Shown piece after piece: positions 15,267 through 31,307 of a stretch of 35,415 nt of DNA. The DNA comes from a virus (lineage: Duplodnaviria > Heunggongvirae > Uroviricota > Caudoviricetes), in IMG/VR virus record IMGVR_UViG_2711768052_000009; one strand, written 5' to 3'. The notes under the pieces are model-generated. The model was not told the DNA's origin. It searched no databases and saw only the letters and a list, made by a program, of their open reading frames with translations. The position numbers were made by a program, and so were the translations under genes. Numbering within the stretch: the stretch's first letter is position 1; each line of letters starts with the position of its first letter.

Positions 15267-15626
15267 ACATCCCGGTTTCTTCCACCATCGCACCGGAAAA
15301 GCGACTATGAGGGTAACCCTGCGTCTGTCAGCACAGTAAAACCCGGTGTGCATCGTTTTTGATTATTCCCGCACACTCACGCAGAAGGAATTCCCCGTCG
15401 GGCTACGGTCATGGTTAATGCGGGAATACGGCGACGATACAGCGCAGCTAAAAGGGTAATGGACAGATAGAGCGGTTTATTTCATTCCACAGGATTCTGA
15501 GTGCCCCCCCTCCTCCAATAGGCTGAGCATCCACCTATATAGTTTTAATTTTCATCAATCCATTTAACTATCGTTTAATTGTTGTCACATAGGATTCTGC
15601 CGTTTTTAACAATGCAGGATAATAAG

Positions 15627-15920
15627 ATGAAAAAAATGTTGTTTTCTGCCGCTCTGGCAATGCTTATTACAGGATGTGCTCAACAGACGTTTACTGTTGG
15701 AAACAAACCGACAGCAGTAACACCAAAGGAAACCATCACCCATCATTTCTTCGTTTCGGGAATTGGACAGGAGAAAACTGTTGATGCAGCCAAAATTTGT
15801 GGCGGCGCAGAAAATGTTGTTAAAACAGAAACCCAGCAAACATTCGTAAATGGATTTCTCGGTTTTATTACTTTAGGCATTTATACTCCGCTGGAAGCGC
15901 GTGTGTATTGCTCACAATAA
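15627..15920 (+). CDS. bor: Bor lipoprotein (serum-resistance, lysogenic conversion)
   Basis: 97 aa from ATG 15627 (MKKMLFSAALAMLITGC AQQTFTV...); lipobox LITGC; matches lambda Bor; opposite strand to the late genes as in lambda. Confidence 0.9.
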   Translation: MKKMLFSAALAMLITGCAQQTFTVGNKPTAVTPKETITHHFFVSGIGQEKTVDAAKICGGAENVVKTETQQTFVNGFLGFITLGIYTPLEARVYCSQ

Positions 15921-17283: not shown

Positions 17284-17710
17284 AAGCTGTGTGACGAAGT
17301 AACCACTCTTAACAGCATAACCAATTTTTTACGTACGTAAACCACAAAATGATATTTGCGAGAATGCTACCGAGTATTGAAAACACCACTACAAATACAT
17401 AAGCAAATCTCAACAAATAACCAACAAATAATTTCCAGTGTTATTTTTAGCCGATTTAAATTGAACCTTCAAATTACAGAGCACTTATAAATAACAGCCG
17501 TTAATATAAATTGGCTAATAGATTTATTTTTATTCAGCCAAGATCCATGAATAGGATTCGATAGAAAAAAGTTCAGATAAAAATAGAGATCTACTTCACA
17601 AATCAAACGAGAAACCAAAACTTACATCTTGAAATAATCACATTGATTAGATGAATATTTATCGCGCAGTGACATCATTTTTTAATAATAGTTCAAAAAA
17701 AGGGCTCACG

Positions 17711-18793
17711 ATGAAAAAATTAACAGTGGCAATTTCTGCTGTAGCTGCATCAGTACTGATGGCGATGTCTGCTCAGGCAGCTGAAATTTATAATAAAGAC
17801 AGTAACAAGCTGGATCTATATGGGAAAGTTAATGCCAAGCACTACTTCTCCTCTAATGATGCAGATGATGGTGATACTACTTATGCCCGTCTTGGCTTCA
17901 AAGGTGAAACCCAAATCAACGATCAACTGACTGGTTTCGGTCAGTGGGAATATGAATTCAAAGGCAACCGCGCTGAATCTCAAGGCTCCTCCAAAGACAA
18001 AACCCGTCTTGCATTTGCAGGCCTGAAATTCGGGGACTACGGCTCAATCGATTACGGCCGTAACTACGGTGTAGCATATGACATCGGTGCGTGGACTGAC
18101 GTTCTGCCAGAATTCGGTGGCGATACCTGGACCCAAACAGATGTGTTCATGACTGGTCGCACCACTGGTGTTGCAACTTATCGTAACAACGACTTCTTTG
18201 GTCTGGTTGATGGTCTGAACTTTGCTGCTCAGTATCAGGGTAAAAATGACCGCACTGACGTAACTGAAGCTAATGGTGATGGTTTCGGTTTCTCCACTAC
18301 TTATGAGTATGAAGGATTCGGTGTAGGTGCAACCTATGCTAAATCTGACCGCACTAATAATCAGGTTATCTACGGTAACAACAGCCTGAATGCATCTGGT
18401 CAAAATGCTGAAGTATGGGCAGCTGGTCTGAAATATGATGCGAACAACATCTATCTGGCTACCACCTATTCTGAAACCCAGAACATGACTGTTTTTGGTA
18501 ATAACCATATTGCCAACAAAGCACAAAACTTCGAAGTAGTTGCACAATATCAGTTCGACTTCGGTCTGCGTCCGTCCGTTGCTTACCTGCAATCTAAAGG
18601 AAAAGACTTGGGTGCGTGGGGTGATCAGGACCTGGTTGAATATATTGATGTAGGTGCAACCTATTACTTCAACAAAAATATGTCCACTTTTGTTGATTAC
18701 AAAATCAACCTGATTGATAAGAGCGATTTCACGAAAGCATCTGGCGTTGCTACCGATGATATCGTTGCTGTAGGTATGGTTTACCAGTTCTAA
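17711..18793 (+). CDS. nmpC: OmpC-family outer-membrane porin (NmpC/Lc-like), intact
   Basis: 360 aa from ATG 17711: [47 protein letters not shown]...VGMVYQF; signal peptide and C-terminal aromatic residue typical of general porins; position between Q and S on the opposite strand as in DLP12 / PA-2. Confidence 0.88.
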
Positions 18794-27086: not shown

Positions 27087-27632
27087 TCATATTGCCCCCA
27101 GCATGGTGGTGACCATCGCCATCAATGGACCAGCCAGATCCGGGTCCACTCGAAACATCGACACAATGCCTTCACTCATCTCCTTCAGTTTCTGGTGGCG
27201 TGGTGCGTTGAGAATGACCGCCTGCTTTGCCTCACAGAGTTCCTTTTCCATTTCAGCCAGCCGAGCCATGAAGCTATCCTGCTCAACCAGGTGGCCGCGA
27301 TATTCCAGCGGTAGTACCGCCAGAATTGCCGGGGTCAGTTCACGCACGTTATTTCGGTATTTTTCAGAATCGAATTTGTTATCGAGGAAGCGGAACAGCT
27401 TCTGGCGTGCACGGCTGACATCATCAGGGAAATCGATGGTGCCGCCGCCCTGCTCCCGATACTCATTCACAATGAGTGCGGCAACAACATCCTGATTATC
27501 TGCAGCCGACCAGGCGCGAACGGCATCACGGATTTTTTCGTGGCCTGGCACCTGTTTTATTTGAGAACGATTTATCACCGCAGTCGGGCTAAATCCGCTA
27601 GTCTGTTGGTATGTAAGTGGTTGCATAATCAT
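27087..27632 (-). CDS. YdaT-like protein (DUF1019) in the cII position
   Basis: 181 aa, MIMQPLTYQQTSGF...; segment NEYREQGGGTIDFP...LTPAILAVLPLEYRGHLVEQDSF resembles the Rac prophage YdaT core as remembered; not lambda CII-like. Confidence 0.65.
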   Translation of the reverse strand: MIMQPLTYQQTSGFSPTAVINRSQIKQVPGHEKIRDAVRAWSAADNQDVVAALIVNEYREQGGGTIDFPDDVSRARQKLFRFLDNKFDSEKYRNNVRELTPAILAVLPLEYRGHLVEQDSFMARLAEMEKELCEAKQAVILNAPRHQKLKEMSEGIVSMFRVDPDLAGPLMAMVTTMLGAI

Positions 27633-27656
27633 TGCCTTATCAGTTAACGCCGCAGT

Positions 27657-27884
27657 TTAGGCGGCAGAATTACTCGCGTTAAACAATGGTGCAAGGTCGG
27701 GACGAATATCTGCTGGTTTAATCTTTCCACCAGTGGCTGAGACAATTTTCATTACATAGCGGGCATCAATTCCGCCACCGTGTAGCCAACGCCAAACAGT
27801 GGGCTGGGCTACACCGCATAGATCTGCCAGTCGTTTTTGACTACCTGTAATACTGATTGCGAGTTGAATGGTTTGATTTGTCAT
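27657..27884 (-). CDS. cro: Cro-like HTH repressor (YdaS/Cro family)
   Basis: 75 aa from ATG 27882-27884: MTNQTIQLAISITGSQKRLADLCGVAQPTVWRWLHGGGIDARYVMKIVSATGGKIKPADIRPDL; HTH at QKRLADLCGVAQPTVWRW; divergent from cI across the operator region. The track start is TTG two codons upstream. Confidence 0.75.
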   Translation of the reverse strand: MTNQTIQLAISITGSQKRLADLCGVAQPTVWRWLHGGGIDARYVMKIVSATGGKIKPADIRPDLAPLFNASNSAA

Positions 27885-27994
27885 TATCAATTCCTATTGG
27901 TATTACAATGAATGGATAATAGCAATGCGTATTAACCCAATCAATAGCAAAACGTGTTTTGACCATCAATACGCAAGCGTATAAATTAAAACTT
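27885..27994. promoter_or_regulatory. Immunity control region: divergent PR (to cro) and PRM (to cI) with candidate OR operator repeats
   Basis: Minus strand: -35 TTGATT (27939-27944) / 17 bp / -10 TATTAT (27916-27921) for cro. Plus strand: -35 TTGACC (27959-27964) / 15-16 bp / TATAAAT (27980-27986) ending 8 nt before the cI ATG. Motif AATAGCAA at 27918-27925 and 27943-27950 (25-bp spacing). Confidence 0.6.
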
Positions 27995-28687
27995 ATGAAA
28001 AAAGAAACTCTTGCTGATCGCTTAAACCTAGCGATGGAACAATCTGGAATGTCTCAAGGCGCTCTTGCAAAGGCGTCTGGCGTAGCTCAACCCACAATCT
28101 GGAGACTGACAAGCGGCAACGCACGCGGCTCAACAAAAATTGTTGAAATAGCTAATGCATTGGGTGTTCGAACAGAGTGGCTCTCATCAGGCATAGGCCC
28201 GATGAGAAATGACGGTCAACAATCAGGGAAGCCTGCTGCCAACCATCCCAAATACTTCAAGATTGACGTTCTTGATATAGAAGTGAGTGCCGGGCCGGGA
28301 GTCATCAACCGTGAGTTTGTAGAAGTTCTACGCTCGGTTGAGTACTCGTTTGACGATGCTCGTCACATGTTCGATGGCAGGAAGGCGGAAAATATCCGTA
28401 TCATTAACGTACGCGGTGACAGCATGTCAGGAACGATCGAACCAGGTGATCTGCTGTTCGTTGATATCACGGTTAAATCTTTCGACGGTGATGGTATCTA
28501 TGCGTTTCTGTACGACGACACAGCCCATGTAAAGCGCCTGCAAATGATGAAGGATAAACTGCTGGTTATCTCTGATAACAAGAGCTACTCACCGTGGGAC
28601 CCAATCGAGAAAGACGAGATGAACCGGGTATTCATCTTCGGGAAAGTCATCGGGAGCATGCCGCAGACGTATAGGAAGCATGGATAA
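27995..28687 (+). CDS. cI: CI-type prophage repressor (N-terminal XRE HTH plus C-terminal S24 LexA-like autopeptidase)
   Basis: 230 aa from ATG 27995: MKKETLADRLNLAMEQSGMSQGALAKASGVAQPTIWRL...; Ala-Gly cleavage-site candidate in VSAGPG; S24 motifs GDSMSGTIEPGDLLFVD and HVKRL (Ser/Lys dyad). The track ORF starts at an upstream TTG. Confidence 0.85.
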   Translation: MKKETLADRLNLAMEQSGMSQGALAKASGVAQPTIWRLTSGNARGSTKIVEIANALGVRTEWLSSGIGPMRNDGQQSGKPAANHPKYFKIDVLDIEVSAGPGVINREFVEVLRSVEYSFDDARHMFDGRKAENIRIINVRGDSMSGTIEPGDLLFVDITVKSFDGDGIYAFLYDDTAHVKRLQMMKDKLLVISDNKSYSPWDPIEKDEMNRVFIFGKVIGSMPQTYRKHG

Positions 28688-28782
28688 TTCGACATAAATT
28701 CAACAAGTTAACTTTGGCTTCAAAAAAGCATCGATAACATTGCATTATATTTTTCCTTTTGTCTAACTTAAAAGGATGAACA

Positions 28783-29508
28783 ATGGAAGAACGTGGGAAT
28801 TACCTAATAGAACCCCTAGAAGTAATTGGTTCTGGCGGTTTTGGCCTTGTAGAAAAAATAAGGTTATATAACTCACAAAGAAAAATTTGTGGTCTATATG
28901 CCAGAAAAATTTTACGACCTGATGCAACAGATCCTGAACTCTTTACCAGATTTGAACGAGAAGTAAGATATCAAACTGAATGCCTGCATACTAATATTGT
29001 CCAAATATTCATATGCCACTTACAGAATGCTCAGCCTTGGTTCGTAATGGAACTAGCAGAAACAAATCTTGAAGAAGAAATAAAAAGTGGAACTCTTACA
29101 AAGGCTGAAAAAATCTCTATTGTAAAAATGGTACTAAATGCCGTCGGATGGATTCATAAGAAAGGATATCTTCATCGGGATATAAAACCACTAAATGTAC
29201 TAAAATTTAAAGATGGAATTTATAAGTTATCTGACTTCGGCCTTGCAAAAAATGTGTCACCAGATGCCAATACACAGCTATTAACACAAATTGGCCAATA
29301 CCCCGCTACTCCTAAATACTTTGATTACAACGTTTTCCTCAACGGATATTCAAAACAATCAGATATATATTCAATTGGTATTTTAATTGAAGAATTAAAT
29401 ATTGATGGTTTTGATGATATAATAAACAAATGTACGCATAGACAACTTAACAAAAGATTCCTGACCGTAGAGCAGATCTTTGAGGAATTGGAGTTGAAAC
29501 GCTTATGA
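28783..29508 (+). CDS. Hanks-type (eukaryotic-like) Ser/Thr protein kinase, minimal catalytic domain only (241 aa)
   Basis: ATG 28783 with AGGA RBS; Gly loop IGSGGFGLV (res 15-23); beta3 Lys in YARK (res 40-43); catalytic loop HRDIKPLN (res 131-138, nt 29173-29196); DFG in LSDFGLAK (res 150-152); APE-like ATPKY; DIYSIG (subdomain IX). No TM or sensor domains. AT-rich. Confidence 0.85.
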   Translation: MEERGNYLIEPLEVIGSGGFGLVEKIRLYNSQRKICGLYARKILRPDATDPELFTRFEREVRYQTECLHTNIVQIFICHLQNAQPWFVMELAETNLEEEIKSGTLTKAEKISIVKMVLNAVGWIHKKGYLHRDIKPLNVLKFKDGIYKLSDFGLAKNVSPDANTQLLTQIGQYPATPKYFDYNVFLNGYSKQSDIYSIGILIEELNIDGFDDIINKCTHRQLNKRFLTVEQIFEELELKRL

Positions 29509-30248
29509 TTAGCATACTCTCATCATCCATATTTTCTGTACCAAAACATAATGGCAGGGAAAATCAAGATAGCGTGCTTTATCCACTTCAAACACCAAAT
29601 GGTTATCTTATGGCTATAGCTGATGGGGTTGGTGGTTATAAAGGAGGAAAAGAAGCATCTGCAGCAGTAATAAATCATTTGTATAGTATTAAAGACAGCT
29701 TCACTCATGAAGACAATGTCTTATCCTTACTTAAGACCCTACAAGAAAAGGTGGCATCTCTTTCGTCAGTTGATAAAGAATTAGCATCTGCTGCTACAAC
29801 TTTAACAATGTGCCTACTTCACAATCAAGGTCTAACAATTATACATGTAGGTGACTGTCGTGTTTATTTAAAAAATGGAAATAAGCTAATCCAATTAACA
29901 ACAGATCATACTCAACATCAAATGTTGATAGATAGCGGTATTTATACAGCTCGACAGCTCAAAAATGCAAAAGGTAAAAATATTATTACAACTGCACTTG
30001 CTGCCAAGATCCCCCTTCAACATCAAGTCATAAATATTGATAAAGATGAACTTCCTCTTGACGATGGTGTTCTATCTCTATTCATCATGTCTGATGGCGC
30101 GCATACCTTTTGGGAGCAACGCCCACGATTTTCTTACCGTACATTGTCAACCGCATCAAGGTTTGCCTCCAGCCTAATGCGAAGAATAGAGACAAAAGGC
30201 CCGACTGACGATTATTCTCTTATAGCGGTAAATGTAAAGTATTTGTAA
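29505..30248 (+). CDS. PP2C/PPM-family Ser/Thr protein phosphatase (247 aa)
   Basis: ATG 29505 overlapping the kinase stop (ATGA); PPM motifs IADGVGGYKGG, HVGDCRVY (GDSR-type), TTDHT, FIMSDGA; compact bacterial PP2C size. Confidence 0.8.
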   Translation: MISILSSSIFSVPKHNGRENQDSVLYPLQTPNGYLMAIADGVGGYKGGKEASAAVINHLYSIKDSFTHEDNVLSLLKTLQEKVASLSSVDKELASAATTLTMCLLHNQGLTIIHVGDCRVYLKNGNKLIQLTTDHTQHQMLIDSGIYTARQLKNAKGKNIITTALAAKIPLQHQVINIDKDELPLDDGVLSLFIMSDGAHTFWEQRPRFSYRTLSTASRFASSLMRRIETKGPTDDYSLIAVNVKYL

Positions 30249-30253
30249 ACTTC

Positions 30254-30280
30254 CCGGCCACCGTGCCGGGTTTTCTTTTA
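30254..30280 (+). terminator. Rho-independent terminator ending the cI-kinase-phosphatase transcript (tImm-like)
   Basis: CCCGGCcaccgtGCCGGG hairpin followed by TTTTCTTTT, 6 nt after the phosphatase stop. Confidence 0.8.
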
Positions 30281-30404
30281 TCCCCTCCCCTCATCACATA
30301 TACCGTTCAAAAAACCACCACAATCTCCCTTCAGTTATCGCTATGCGATGCAAGTCACAAAATTAATTCTTTTTGCTATCAAACAGTTAATATCAAAACA
30401 CATC

Positions 30405-30455
30405 AATCAATAGCAATAAGTATTGATACCGCCAATAGCAATAGCTATTATTACC
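30405..30455 (+). promoter_or_regulatory. Candidate PL promoter with OL operator repeats
   Basis: -35 TTGATA (30423-30428) / 17-bp spacer / -10 TATTAT (30446-30451), oriented toward the downstream ORF and gam-bet-exo; CAATAGCAA at 30408-30416 and 30433-30441 (25-bp spacing), the same motif and spacing as at OR. Confidence 0.6.
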
Positions 30456-30644
30456 ATGTCGCAACAACACAACGATACGGCAACCGCCTGATTCACCGTT
30501 GCGATGACCGCTTAGATCCGCAGCTTGAATTTCGGCAGGCTCCGGGGAGTGCGAGGGGTGAAACGGACGCGTGAACGTCGGTGTGACCAGCTGAAATCAA
30601 CTCAACACCTCATACCTCAGTCGCTTCAACGAGGCGGCTTAGTT

Positions 30645-30935
30645 ATGACAACCGGCGGCCATCCACCGCCTGAATACGCGCAGAAGTCTCTATATGTTCA
30701 GCAGCCCAGCTTACGGGCAGGAGTTTTTATGGTTCATCAACATTATGGAACGCAGACCGTTAATCGAGGTGCGGTCATGCCAGGAATGCTGGTCAAACAC
30801 AAAGATGGTACCTGGACTGCATCAGCTAATTTACGCGGACGGCTTTATCTGCATCGCGGCATCGAGCGCACTTATACCCGTGATTTGCTCGTGGAAGTTT
30901 TTCTCGACGGACGCGGTAACGGCCTGAATCACTAA
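30645..30935 (+). CDS. Hypothetical protein, first gene of the PL operon (occupies the N/kil position); possible upstream GTG start at 30558
   Basis: ATG at 30645 gives 96 aa ([48 protein letters not shown]...); the frame is open upstream, and GTG 30558 (GGGGAG SD 8 nt upstream) would add an Arg-rich segment VKRTRERRCDQLKS. No family recognised. Confidence 0.5.
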
Positions 30936-31010
30936 TCCCCTTTCCTGTTTTCCTAATCAGCCTGGCATTTCGCGGGCGATATTTTCACAGCCATTTTCAG
31001 GAGGTCAGCC

Positions 31011-31307
31011 ATGAACGCTTATTACATTCAGGATCGTCTTGAGGCTCAGAGCTGGGCGCGTCACTACCAGCAGATCGCCCGTGAAGAGAAAGAGGCAGAA
31101 CTGGCAGACGACATGGAAAAAGGCCTGCCCCAGCACCTGTTTGAATCGCTATGCATCGATCATTTGCAACGCCACGGGGCCAGCAAAAAAGCCATTACCC
31201 GTGCGTTTGATGACGATGTTGAGTTTCAGGAGCGCATGGCAGAACACATCCAGTACATGGTTGAAACCATTGCTCACCACCAGGTTGATATTGATTCAGA
31301 GGTATAA
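31011..31307 (+). CDS. gam: Gam, short form (RecBCD inhibitor GamS)
   Basis: 98 aa, [56 protein letters not shown]...; matches the lambda Gam C-terminal 98 aa; AGGAGG RBS upstream; an in-frame stop at 30954 precludes a long form. Confidence 0.9.

What the first reader, a model, noticed from the sequence alone, without database searches (positions are those of the whole stretch)
28783..30280. Translationally coupled Ser/Thr kinase and PP2C phosphatase in the rexA/rexB position: candidate phage-exclusion module
Immediately downstream of cI, on the same strand and before the tImm-like terminator and PL, lie two AT-rich cargo genes where lambda carries rexA-rexB. The first has a complete Hanks kinase motif set (GxGxxG, VAIK-type Lys, HRD, DFG, APE-like) in only 241 aa with no sensor or membrane domain. 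The second has PPM/PP2C motifs (DGxGG, GDxR, DH, SDG). The kinase stop overlaps the phosphatase start (ATGA at 29505-29508), which implies coupled expression. Placement in the immunity operon predicts expression in the lysogen. From memory, Stx phage 933W is reported to carry a kinase (Stk) near cI that excludes a superinfecting phage; an obligately coupled antagonistic PP2C partner is not something I can place in a described system. Working hypothesis (inference): a kinase effector with a phosphatase brake, giving toxin-antitoxin-like abortive infection.
Basis: partly seen in the sequence, partly recalled or inferred. Interest (0 to 1): 0.9.

Follow-up and report, generated by a model that had tools for sequence, protein, structure and literature searches.

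The report
Prophage kinase–phosphatase pair behind cI
A lambda-like E. coli prophage carries, directly behind its repressor gene, a foreign two-gene cassette encoding a bare Ser/Thr protein kinase coupled to a PP2C phosphatase; the pair is real and belongs to a widespread, untested prophage gene family that most likely protects the lysogen from other phages, in the way a recently described three-gene kinase/phosphatase system (KKP) does.

Summary
A 241-aa Hanks-type kinase (28783-29508) and a 247-aa PP2C phosphatase (29505-30248) overlap by ATGA. They lie between cI and a terminator, ahead of OL/PL. All catalytic residues are intact, and both AlphaFold models are confident.

The pair is a 33-36% GC swap cassette (28687-30251). 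Related phages with the same cI carry other two-gene cassettes in this slot, including a HipA-like kinase plus DUF3037, whose domain architecture matches an experimentally validated defence system (DS-6).

The pair belongs to a discrete family of at least 69 distinct versions in gammaproteobacterial prophages. The kinase comes first and the PP2C follows within a few bases in 58 of 59 informative kinase-seeded loci. The two genes co-evolve (r = 0.84) and are under purifying selection. The family sits in several accessory-gene slots: after cI, after Q, after Rz, and next to antirepressors.

KKP (Guo 2024) is a prophage kinase-kinase-PP2C toxin-antitoxin defence. This pair is not a KKP member: it has one kinase, no CSD or FHA domain, and the opposite gene order. 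It is also not a homologue of 933W Stk (26% identity).

Defence by a kinase toxin with a phosphatase brake is the best reading (about 0.5) but is untested. I rate it a new variant of a known kind, with moderate interest.

The parts
27890..27951 (.). OR-like operator cluster between cro (27657-27890, minus strand) and cI
   Evidence: Exact and one-mismatch copies of AATAGCAAT cluster here and at 30409-30449 only. The divergent cro and cI ORFs flank it.
27959..28687 (+). cI-type repressor (HTH plus S24 peptidase). The likely true start is the ATG at 27996.
   Evidence: Pfam Peptidase_S24 1.5e-18, HTH_3 1.5e-6, Phage_CI_repr. It is 97% identical in DNA to cI of phages 4A7, D2 and 1W. RefSeq calls the equivalent gene a 230-aa S24 peptidase.
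28688..28782 (+). 95-nt AT-rich leader that belongs to the cassette. No consensus promoter or terminator was found in it.
   Evidence: Homology to phage 4A7 stops at 28686, so the leader is part of the cargo. The scan of 27500-31100 reports no promoter-like or terminator-like site in this stretch. An AGGA lies 8 nt before the kinase ATG.
28783..29508 (+). Bare-domain Hanks-type (RD) Ser/Thr protein kinase, 241 aa
   Evidence: Pkinase 2.5e-32. Invariant K42, E60, HRD131-133, K135, N138, DFG151-153 and activation-loop T168. AlphaFold2 pLDDT 89, pTM 0.87, with the activation loop 163-171 disordered. Closest solved structures are S. aureus Stk1/PknB, StkP and M. tuberculosis PknB.
29505..29508 (+). 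ATGA stop/start overlap (translational coupling)
   Evidence: Read directly from the sequence. The same 4-nt overlap occurs in 17 of 37 genome and phage loci and in most viral loci.
29505..30248 (+). PPM/PP2C Ser/Thr phosphatase, 247 aa
   Evidence: PP2C_2 4.8e-12, PP2C 1.1e-7. Invariant metal-binding Asp D22, D40, D117, D197, D235, D236. AlphaFold2 pLDDT 91.5, pTM 0.88. Closest solved structures are PstP, Stp1, tPphA and PppA.
30253..30280 (+). Intrinsic terminator (tImm equivalent). It belongs to the phage backbone, not the cassette.
   Evidence: 6-bp all-GC stem followed by TTTTCTTTT. It folds at -11.8 kcal/mol, z = -2.2. Homology to 4A7, PhiR47_2 and PhiR5_1 resumes at 30252-30253.
30409..30451 (+). 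OL-like operators and a PL-like promoter reading toward kil, gam, bet and exo
   Evidence: TTGATA-17-TATTAT at 30423-30451. Operator words lie at 30409, 30434 and 30440. Kil, Gam, Bet and Exo lie downstream.

Best explanation
Positions 28687-30251 are a horizontally acquired two-gene accessory cassette in the rex-equivalent slot of a lambdoid prophage. I propose that it is transcribed with cI from PRM and ends at the backbone terminator.

It encodes a stand-alone RD-type Ser/Thr kinase and, translationally coupled to it, a PP2C phosphatase. I propose that the pair works as a phosphorylation-based toxin-antitoxin-like superinfection defence.

- **In the uninfected lysogen,** the phosphatase keeps the kinase's activation loop (invariant T168) and any cellular substrates dephosphorylated.
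- **When a foreign phage infects,** a phage product or its effect on the cell tips the balance. The most likely route, by analogy with KKP, is inhibition or titration of the phosphatase. The alternative, as in 933W Stk and Stk2, is direct activation of the kinase.
- **The outcome** is that the kinase autophosphorylates and then phosphorylates essential host or phage proteins, which aborts the infection.

**Shown here:** gene structure, catalytic competence, cassette boundaries, obligate pairing, co-evolution, purifying selection, prophage and accessory-slot distribution, and neighbouring defence genes.

**Inferred:** co-transcription with cI, kinase toxicity, the phosphatase acting as brake, the phage trigger, and the abortive outcome.
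For: **1. The slot holds defence and toxin-antitoxin cargo.**
- Phages with the same cI carry alternative cargo here: GevT/GevA (annotated as a toxin/antitoxin pair) or a HipA_2 kinase plus a DUF3037 protein.
- The HipA-family kinase plus DUF3037 architecture is the experimentally validated defence system DS-6 (PMC13092281).
- Lambda rexAB and 933W stk occupy the equivalent position.

**2. There is a mechanistic precedent.** KKP is a prophage system of Ser/Thr kinases and a PP2C acting as toxin and antitoxin. It confers abortive-type defence, and a phage protein triggers it by inhibiting the phosphatase.

**3. The kinase resembles defence kinases.** Its catalytic domain matches PADLOC models mad6 (3e-39), PD-T4-6 (1e-34) and Stk2 (2e-27).

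**4. The pairing is obligate.**
- In kinase-seeded viral loci, 58 of 59 informative family kinases, down to 32% identity, have an intact PP2C directly downstream; the exception is L142, whose PP2C is frameshifted.
- In PP2C-seeded genome loci, 34 of the 38 family loci have a kinase ORF ending within a few bases upstream.
- The junction is mostly the ATGA overlap.
- Kinase and PP2C identity matrices correlate at r = 0.84, with 0 of 999 permutations as high.

**5. Both genes are under purifying selection.** dS is saturated while dN is 0.07-0.34. Among close relatives the PP2C diverges about 2.5 times faster than the kinase, which fits a phage-facing sensor.

**6. The kinase looks switchable.** It is an RD kinase with an invariant activation-loop Thr and a disordered loop in the model. 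This is the textbook substrate for a partner PP2C, as in PknB/PstP.

**7. Gene decay is asymmetric.** The kinase is broken or absent with the PP2C intact in L022, L036 and L120. The reverse occurs once, in L142.

**8. Known defence genes lie nearby.** Neighbours include HamB (Hachiman), PD-T7-1, HEC-04, SduA and PD-Lambda-1.

**9. The immunity-operon layout fits.** No promoter or terminator lies between cI and the kinase. A terminator follows the PP2C, and OL/PL lies beyond it.
Against: - No experiment on any member of this family was found. Toxicity, trigger and protection are all untested.
- About a quarter of the 69 versions have recognisable late-operon neighbours, after Q or after endolysin-Rz, against about seven after cI. 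Expression in those slots would peak during the prophage's own lytic growth, which does not obviously suit a lysogen defence.
- One locus (L142) keeps an intact kinase beside a frameshifted PP2C. If that is real, the kinase alone is not lethal.
- The decay asymmetry is 3 to 1, which is too small to carry weight.
- Toxin-first gene order differs from KKP, where the phosphatase comes first.
- The PADLOC hits cover only the generic kinase domain.
- Defence neighbours were seen in only about 5 of about 33 genome loci.
- KKP also regulates lysogeny, so a regulatory role is equally precedented.
Confidence: 0.5

Rival explanations
1. The pair is a regulatory or lysogenic-conversion module. It reversibly phosphorylates host or prophage regulators, such as nucleoid-associated silencers or cell-envelope and division proteins. 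This would tune lysogeny maintenance, induction or host physiology, and anti-phage defence would not be its main role.
For: - KKP controls Pf prophage production by phosphorylating the silencer MvaU.
- The closest solved relatives of both proteins are housekeeping signalling pairs: Stk1/Stp1, PknB/PstP and PpkA/PppA.
- The same prophage carries conversion genes, an Iss/Bor-like lipoprotein and a porin.
- The module occurs in many prophage slots.
Against: - Neither protein has a sensor, membrane, FHA or DNA-binding domain that would link it to a signal.
- The alternative cargos of the same slot are toxin-antitoxin or defence-type.
- Some neighbours are defence genes.
- The strict coupling and co-evolution of an antagonistic pair fit a poised switch better than a graded regulator. 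They do not exclude a regulator.
Confidence: 0.2
2. The pair is a defence, but not a toxin-antitoxin system. The kinase is inert until a specific phage protein activates it directly, as in 933W Stk with HK97 or staphylococcal Stk2. The PP2C only resets the system and limits collateral phosphorylation. There would be no addiction and no baseline toxicity.
For: - 933W Stk sits in the same operon position and works without any phosphatase.
- PD-T4-6 and Stk2 are single-gene kinase defences (PMC11341870 discussion).
- L142 keeps an intact kinase beside a frameshifted PP2C.
- In the model the activation loop is disordered, which is the unphosphorylated state.
Against: - The kinase lacks the C-terminal extensions that 933W Stk (348 aa), PD-T4-6 (436 aa) and Stk2 carry and that could act as sensors.
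- The near-obligate presence of the PP2C and its translational coupling suggest that the phosphatase is needed for the module to be tolerated.
Confidence: 0.15
3. The pair is a lytic-cycle host-takeover function. It would be expressed mainly from the late or early lytic transcripts of its own phage. The kinase would reprogramme host machinery, in the manner of T7 gp0.7, and the phosphatase would shape timing or specificity.
For: - About a quarter of the 69 versions have recognisable late-operon neighbours: directly after Q (E. coli 55989, E24377A, phiES15) or between Rz and terS (Flotzy and others).
- The kinase homolog search and the cluster look-up return only generic source names. The role of T7 gp0.7 is from my own knowledge.
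Against: - In this window the pair is in the cI operon, which is shut off during lytic growth and on in the lysogen.
- Accessory genes in late-operon slots are commonly expressed from their own promoters in lysogens (general knowledge, not tested here).
- A foreign-GC, freely swappable cassette is not a core lytic function.
Confidence: 0.1

Closest known systems
KKP (PfkA/PfkB/PfpC) kinase-kinase-phosphatase module of Pf6, P2/P4-like and Mu-like prophages (Guo et al. 2024, PMC11341870)
   Same: Both are prophage-borne and combine Hanks-type Ser/Thr kinase(s) with a PP2C_2 (PF13672) phosphatase in one operon. The opposing activities form a toxin/antitoxin pair. KKP defends against lytic phages, and the phosphatase is the point a phage protein attacks. 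Both are widespread in Gram-negative prophages.
   Different: - KKP has three genes in the order PP2C-kinase-kinase, each 900-1300 bp. Its kinases need each other and carry CSD and FHA domains.
- Here there is one 241-aa kinase with no accessory domain, the kinase comes first, and an ATGA overlap joins it to a 247-aa PP2C.
- A tblastn search of the PP2C against phage records found only Flotzy, phiES15 and Gram-positive Stp-like hits.
Stk of Stx phage 933W / phi24B (Tyler 2004; Friedman 2011, as cited in PMC3564112)
   Same: Both are eukaryotic-like kinases encoded downstream of cI and upstream of the PRM terminator and N/PL. The 933W kinase is expressed in the lysogen and aborts infection by a heterologous phage (HK97).
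   Different: - Identity is only 25.7% over the kinase domain (E 3e-7).
- Stk is 348 aa with a C-terminal extension and has no phosphatase partner. It is preceded by DUF3024 and a resolvase-like gene.
- Stk is reported as a tyrosine kinase, whereas this kinase has the Ser/Thr-type HRDxKxxN loop.
Single-gene defence kinases PD-T4-6 (Vassallo 2022) and Stk2 (Depardieu 2016); MAD6 of the MADS system
   Same: They give the best PADLOC matches to the kinase domain: mad6 3e-39, PD-T4-6 1e-34, Stk2 2e-27.
   Different: - The matches cover only the catalytic domain: profile positions 15-205 of 327, 129-352 of 500 and 53-249 of 659.
- PD-T4-6 is a single 436-aa gene.
- None of them has a coupled PP2C.
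- The NCBIfam MAD6 score is 66.8 against a cut-off of 460.
Housekeeping bacterial eSTK/eSTP pairs (Stk1/Stp1, PknB/PstP, PrkC/PrpC, PpkA/PppA)
   Same: These are the closest solved structures and the nearest NCBIfam models for both proteins. In them, an RD kinase is switched off by a partner PP2C acting on activation-loop phospho-Thr.
   Different: - Scores fall far below the equivalog cut-offs (105 against 450; 110 against 230).
- There is no transmembrane, PASTA or FHA domain.
- The gene order is kinase then phosphatase, whereas the Gram-positive pairs hit have the phosphatase upstream of the kinase.
- The pair is mobile, low-GC prophage cargo rather than a core gene.
Lambda RexA/RexB
   Same: Both are two genes between cI and the terminator, co-transcribed with cI, and RexAB is the classical abortive exclusion system (general knowledge).
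   Different: There is no sequence or domain relationship. The window proteins are enzymes of the Pkinase and PP2C families, whereas RexA/RexB are a sensor and a membrane ion channel (general knowledge).

Membership tests
Hanks-type (eukaryotic-like) protein kinase superfamily | Match to Pkinase (PF00069) above the gathering score | tested here: met
   112.8 bits against a cut-off of 31.7, E 2.5e-32.
Hanks-type (eukaryotic-like) protein kinase superfamily | Complete catalytic residue set: P-loop, beta3 Lys, alphaC Glu, HRD Asp, Asn, DFG Asp | tested here: met
   G16/G18/G21, K42, E60, D133, N138 and D151 are invariant, or in at least 90% of sequences for G16, across 42 sequences. HRDxKxxN marks the Ser/Thr type.
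Hanks-type (eukaryotic-like) protein kinase superfamily | Bilobal kinase fold | tested here: met
   AlphaFold2 pLDDT 89, pTM 0.87. Foldseek TM about 0.8 to FGFR, PknB and Stk1 kinase domains.
PPM / PP2C phosphatases | Match to PP2C_2 / PP2C above the gathering scores | tested here: met
   46.3 against 24, and 32.2 against 20.3.
PPM / PP2C phosphatases | Conserved metal-coordinating aspartates (motifs I, II, V, VIII, XI) | tested here: met
   D22, D40-G41, D117, D197-G198 and D235-D236 are invariant in 34-40 sequences.
PPM / PP2C phosphatases | PP2C beta-sandwich fold | tested here: met
   pLDDT 91.5. Foldseek TM 0.72-0.81 to PstP, tPphA and Stp1.
KKP (kinase-kinase-phosphatase) | Three-gene cluster in the order PP2C, kinase, kinase | tested here: not met
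   There are two genes, with the kinase first. The flanks are cI and a terminator. The order is the same in all 69 family versions.
KKP (kinase-kinase-phosphatase) | PfkA-like kinase fused to a cold-shock domain; PfkB-like kinase fused to an FHA domain | tested here: not met
   The kinase is 241 aa. Apart from the two overlapping kinase-domain models, Pfam finds only a weak, below-cut-off Chromosome_seg hit, and no CSD or FHA.
KKP (kinase-kinase-phosphatase) | Kinase toxicity neutralised by the catalytically active phosphatase; defence against lytic phages | not testable with these tools
   This requires expression and plaque assays.
933W-type Stk | Encoded in the cI (PRM) operon upstream of its terminator | tested here: met
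933W-type Stk | Sequence orthology to Stk (348 aa, C-terminal extension, no partner) | tested here: not met
   Identity is 25.7% over the kinase domain only (E 3e-7). The architecture differs.
PD-T4-6 / Stk2 single-gene defence kinases | Full-length match to the family profile, including the non-kinase region | tested here: not met
   Only profile positions 15-205 of 327 (PD-T4-6) and 129-352 of 500 (Stk2) are matched. PD-T4-6 is 436 aa.
Stk1/Stp1 (PknB/PstP) housekeeping pair | NCBIfam equivalog cut-offs; PASTA or transmembrane sensor region | tested here: not met
   105.4 against 450, and 110 against 230. No extra domains.
Toxin-antitoxin system with an enzymatic antitoxin (type VII) | Adjacent, co-expressed toxin and antitoxin genes that are co-inherited | tested here: met
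   ATGA overlap. Pairing in 58 of 59 informative loci. Identity matrices correlate at r = 0.84.
Toxin-antitoxin system with an enzymatic antitoxin (type VII) | The toxin arrests growth; the antitoxin neutralises it by chemically modifying it | not testable with these tools
   The only indirect hint is the 3-to-1 decay asymmetry, which is inconclusive.
Prophage accessory ('moron') / defence-hotspot cargo | Foreign composition, sharp boundaries against a conserved backbone, and alternative cargo in the same slot in related phages | tested here: met
   GC is 33-38% against 50-53%. The boundaries are 28686/28687 and 30251/30252. Alternative cassettes occupy the slot in related phages.

The most novel reading that the evidence does not exclude
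The kinase-first, domain-stripped kinase/PP2C pair is a distinct and widespread two-component anti-phage family of gammaproteobacterial prophages. It would be a minimal phosphorylation-based toxin-antitoxin system in which the fast-evolving PP2C senses a phage protein and releasing the kinase aborts infection. Like KKP, it might also feed back on the carrier prophage's own lysogeny decision, because here it is wired into the cI transcript.
Probability: 0.35. Interest if true: 0.65.

Novelty: new variant of a known kind. Interest (0 to 1): 0.5.

Why it matters
If the pair is a defence, it would be the simplest known kinase/phosphatase immune switch: two single-domain enzymes and about 1.5 kb. 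That makes it far easier to dissect than the tripartite KKP.

The material is easy to obtain:
- This allele is present in 15 of 5,426 complete E. coli genomes, and a diverged allele in 49 more, including the reference pathotype strains 55989 and E24377A.
- The exact kinase sequence was seen on 593 assembly contigs and the exact phosphatase on at least 1,000, the counting cap.
- NCTC9066, a culture-collection strain, carries it.

It would also add to the evidence that the cI-to-terminator slot of lambdoid phages is a defence hotspot. That slot holds rexAB, stk, a HipA-like kinase with DUF3037, GevTA, and now this pair.

If instead the pair regulates lysogeny or host physiology, it would be a second example, after KKP, of Ser/Thr phosphorylation controlling a prophage. 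In this case the prophage would be a classical lambdoid one.

Tried and rejected
- **KKP membership: rejected.** The pair has one kinase, no CSD or FHA domain, and the opposite gene order.
- **Orthology to 933W Stk: rejected.** Identity is 25.7% and the architecture differs.
- **PD-T4-6, Stk2 or MAD6 membership: rejected.** Only the kinase domain matches.
- **A fused kinase-PP2C protein: not supported.** PHROG 5650's 565-position profile, matched only at positions 276-519, hinted at one. No fusion appeared among the 69 versions. L116 and the 366-aa Yersinia protein P0003 look like partial tandem duplications.
- **An own promoter in the 95-nt leader: not found** at the scan's threshold. A weak or non-sigma-70 promoter is not excluded.
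- **A structured RNA or put-like element between PL and kil,** to explain the missing N gene: no Rfam hit above gathering, and only a sub-threshold ALIL hit on the other strand. The fold z-score is -0.4. Dropped.
- **More distant PP2C-then-kinase operons** in Binataceae and deltaproteobacterial genomes assembled from metagenomes (L046-L087). They are a different family: a 556-aa gene, a PP2C and one 338-aa kinase. Not pursued.
- **Literature.** 'GevT/GevA' and 'HipD' searches found no source paper for the PhiR phage annotations. Friedman 2011 is not held. No paper on a two-gene prophage kinase/PP2C pair was found.
- **dN/dS ratio.** It could not be computed because dS is saturated. Only dN is reported.
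Full report
**1. Observation**

The two ORFs are as described: kinase 28783..29508 (+, 241 aa) and phosphatase 29505..30248 (+, 247 aa). They share ATGA at 29505-29508.

Both pass curated Pfam thresholds. Pkinase scores 112.8 bits against 31.7, PP2C_2 scores 46.3 against 24, and PP2C scores 32.2 against 20.3. Pfam finds no other domain apart from a weak, below-cut-off Chromosome_seg hit.

Upstream lie a cI-type repressor (S24 peptidase plus HTH; ORF 27959-28687, probable start 27996) and a divergent cro (27657-27890). Five bases after the phosphatase stop there is a GC-rich hairpin with a T-run at 30253-30280. A PL-like promoter follows at 30423-30451.

The exact word AATAGCAAT occurs in the 35-kb window only at 27918, 30409 and 30434, with near-copies around each. 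Operator clusters therefore bracket the cI-kinase-phosphatase block. Kil, Gam, Bet and Exo follow.

The cargo is 33-38% GC against 50-53% for the flanks.

**2. The enzymes look active**

In an alignment of 42 family kinases the following are invariant: G18, G21, A40, K42, E60, H131-R132-D133, K135, N138, D151-F152-G153, T168, D194, G199 and R225. G16 and T176 are conserved in at least 90% of sequences.

HRDxKxxN is the Ser/Thr-type catalytic loop. The Arg before the catalytic Asp makes this an RD kinase, the class normally switched on by activation-loop phosphorylation (established kinase knowledge). T168 lies in that loop. The loop (163-171) is the only low-confidence segment of an otherwise confident model (pLDDT 89, pTM 0.87).

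The APE motif is degenerate in the window's subclade.

The phosphatase keeps every metal-binding aspartate: D22, D40, D117, D197, D235 and D236. It models confidently (pLDDT 91.5).

The nearest solved proteins are the classical bacterial signalling pairs: Stk1/PknB and StkP for the kinase, and PstP, Stp1, tPphA and PppA for the phosphatase. Both proteins fall far below the NCBIfam equivalog cut-offs for those families.

**3. It is a swappable cassette in a cargo hotspot**

Lambda-like phages 4C10, 4A7, D2, 1W, 3W, PhiR70_1 and Perceval share this cro-cI region at about 97% identity and have different genes between cI and the terminator.

Against phage 4A7, homology stops at 28686, the cI stop codon, and resumes at 30252, one base before the terminator stem. 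The cassette is therefore 28687-30251. It brings its own 95-nt leader and uses the backbone terminator.

Alternative cargos in the slot are:
- a 353-357-aa protein plus an ASCH protein, annotated GevT/GevA;
- a HipA_2 kinase plus a DUF3037 protein, annotated HipA/HipD.

The HipA-family kinase plus DUF3037 architecture is the validated defence system DS-6 (PMC13092281). In 319 further complete E. coli genomes only the terminator-proximal flank is shared, and a DUF4411 protein is annotated under the match in four of the five such rows shown.

The window's prophage is itself a mosaic. Compared with the SCU-113 prophage, which carries the identical pair, cro and the N-terminal half of cI differ, while the C-terminal half of cI plus the pair are the same.

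No promoter-like or terminator-like site lies between cI and the kinase. Co-transcription from PRM is therefore the simplest reading, but it is an inference.

**4. It belongs to a discrete, widespread, strictly paired family**

The phosphatase has 261 relatives at E no greater than 1e-5; all but one of the 120 listed are 222-263 aa long. They come from Enterobacterales, Pseudomonas, Vibrio/Photobacterium, Pasteurellaceae, Acinetobacter and Xanthomonas.

The kinase family is equally discrete. Scores fall from 150 bits at about 39% identity straight to generic kinases.

- **Seeding from the phosphatase (genome collection):** 34 of the 38 family loci have a kinase ORF ending within a few bases upstream, counting one cut by a contig end. 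The junction is an ATGA overlap 17 times and ATAATG-type 5 times.
- **Seeding from the kinase (viral contigs):** 58 of 59 informative family kinases, down to 32% identity, are followed at once by an intact PP2C; the exception is L142, whose PP2C is frameshifted.

After removing duplicates there are 69 distinct versions. Kinase and phosphatase pairwise identities correlate at r = 0.84, with 0 of 999 permutations as high, so the two genes travel and diverge together.

Against relatives L092, L093, L094 and L008, synonymous sites are saturated. dN is 0.07-0.26 for the kinase and 0.19-0.34 for the phosphatase. Both genes are under purifying selection, and the phosphatase changes faster among close relatives.

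Sources give only generic names. The exact kinase sequence was seen on 593 contigs and the exact phosphatase on at least 1,000, the counting cap.

Among 5,426 complete E. coli genomes, 15 have this allele, always with both genes intact. A further 49 have a diverged allele.

**5. Where the family sits**

Neighbours are overwhelmingly phage genes: S24 repressors, N peptide, Q, holin, endolysin, Rz, terminase small subunit, integrase and antirepressors.

The recurrent slots are:
- after endolysin-Rz and before terS, about 12 versions, for example phage Flotzy;
- after Q and before the lysis genes, about 6 versions, for example Cronobacter phage phiES15 and E. coli 55989 and E24377A;
- after cI, about 7 versions, including this window and a Citrobacter locus;
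- beside antirepressors, about 8 versions.

The pair is therefore a mobile accessory cassette. The immunity-operon position seen here is one of several.

A few loci lie next to known defence genes: HamB of Hachiman, PD-T7-1, HEC-04, SduA and PD-Lambda-1.

**6. What it most likely does**

[quoted passage not shown] The PP2C holds the RD kinase and its targets dephosphorylated. Infection tips the balance and the kinase aborts the infection.

Support comes from:
- the nature of the slot, which holds rexAB in lambda, stk in 933W and DS-6-like and TA-like cassettes in sister phages;
- the KKP precedent;
- the kinase domain's best PADLOC matches, which are defence kinases;
- obligate coupling and co-evolution;
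- the faster-evolving phosphatase;
- a small decay asymmetry: the kinase is lost or broken with the PP2C intact in L022, L036 and L120, and the reverse occurs once, in L142.

None of this is an experiment. The late-operon position of many family members and the L142 case cut the other way. I put this reading at about 0.5.

The rivals are:
- a regulator of lysogeny or host physiology, as in KKP's second role (0.2);
- a sensor-kinase defence in which the PP2C only resets the system (0.15);
- a lytic-phase takeover function (0.1).

**7. Comparison with known systems**

KKP is defined by three genes in the order PP2C-kinase-kinase, with CSD and FHA fusions and mutually dependent kinases. The window pair fails each of these tests, so it is not a KKP member, although it may work like one.

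*933W Stk.* It shares the operon position and presumably the logic of expression in the lysogen. It is only 25.7% identical, is longer, and has no phosphatase.

*PD-T4-6, Stk2 and MAD6.* They match only over the catalytic domain.

No paper describing a two-gene prophage kinase/PP2C pair was found in four targeted searches. The library searched excludes most subscription journals, so a description elsewhere cannot be ruled out.

**8. Verdict**

The enzymology and placement are right, the functional hypothesis is reasonable but untested, and the claim of having no precedent is out of date.
- Novelty: a new variant of a known kind.
- Interest is moderate (0.5). A specialist who knows KKP, Stk and the lambdoid cargo hotspots would not be surprised. 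Still, the family is minimal, common in well-known E. coli strains and directly testable.

Noticed in passing
window 30280-30730: There is no N-like antiterminator gene between PL (30423-30451) and kil (about 30729-30935), only an untranslated leader of about 280 nt. RefSeq and phage annotations of the same backbone also list no N. No Rfam family reaches its gathering score, and the fold z-score is -0.4. How early leftward antitermination works in this phage group is unexplained.
   Followed up: partly
L004 1669-3085; L005 1521-2949; L006 1575-3148 (same slot as window 28687-30251): Sister phages with the same or a related cI carry other two-gene, overlapping cassettes in this slot. One is an unknown 353-357-aa protein plus an ASCH protein ('GevT/GevA'). 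The other is a HipA_2 kinase plus a DUF3037 protein ('HipA/HipD', the architecture of the validated defence DS-6). In other E. coli genomes a DUF4411 protein is annotated at the shared terminator flank in the rows shown. The slot behaves as a defence and toxin-antitoxin hotspot.
   Followed up: partly
window 27087-27890 (minus strand): The genes in the cro and cII positions match Pfam 'YdaS_toxin' (1e-14) and 'YdaT_toxin' (2.6e-29), as in the Rac prophage, rather than lambda Cro and CII.
   Followed up: no
window 29505-30248 compared with 28783-29508: Among close relatives the phosphatase accumulates non-synonymous change about 2.5 times faster than the kinase (dN 0.19 against 0.07 for L092; 0.32 against 0.13 for L093 and L008). 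Across the whole family the mean identities are similar, at 45% and 43%.
   Followed up: partly
window 30111-30143 (PP2C residues 203-213): A family-specific motif, W-E-x-R-P-R-F-S-x-x-T, is invariant or nearly so in 34-40 sequences. It lies in and just after the helix that follows the SDG metal-binding motif. I do not recall it from classical PP2Cs; this was not checked. It may be a partner or trigger interface.
   Followed up: no
L142 4461-5172: In one viral contig the PP2C is interrupted by two frameshifts while the adjacent kinase is 100% identical to intact relatives. This is either a sequencing error or evidence that the kinase can be tolerated without its partner.
   Followed up: partly
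L116 1-2534; protein P0003 (Yersinia enterocolitica, 366 aa): This is a rearranged version of the module, with partial tandem duplications of kinase segments and an enlarged 366-aa PP2C.
   Followed up: no
window 15579-15920 (+) and 17651-18793 (+): The same prophage carries other accessory genes. An Iss/Bor-like lipoprotein lies beside the lysis genes, and an OmpC/NmpC-like porin lies between the lysis genes and Q.
   Followed up: no
window 27630-28235 compared with L007: E. coli SCU-113 carries the identical kinase-PP2C pair behind a repressor whose N-terminal half, along with cro, differs from the window's. The C-terminal half of cI is shared at about 98% identity. Recombination inside cI appears to move the cargo between immunity types.
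   Followed up: partly
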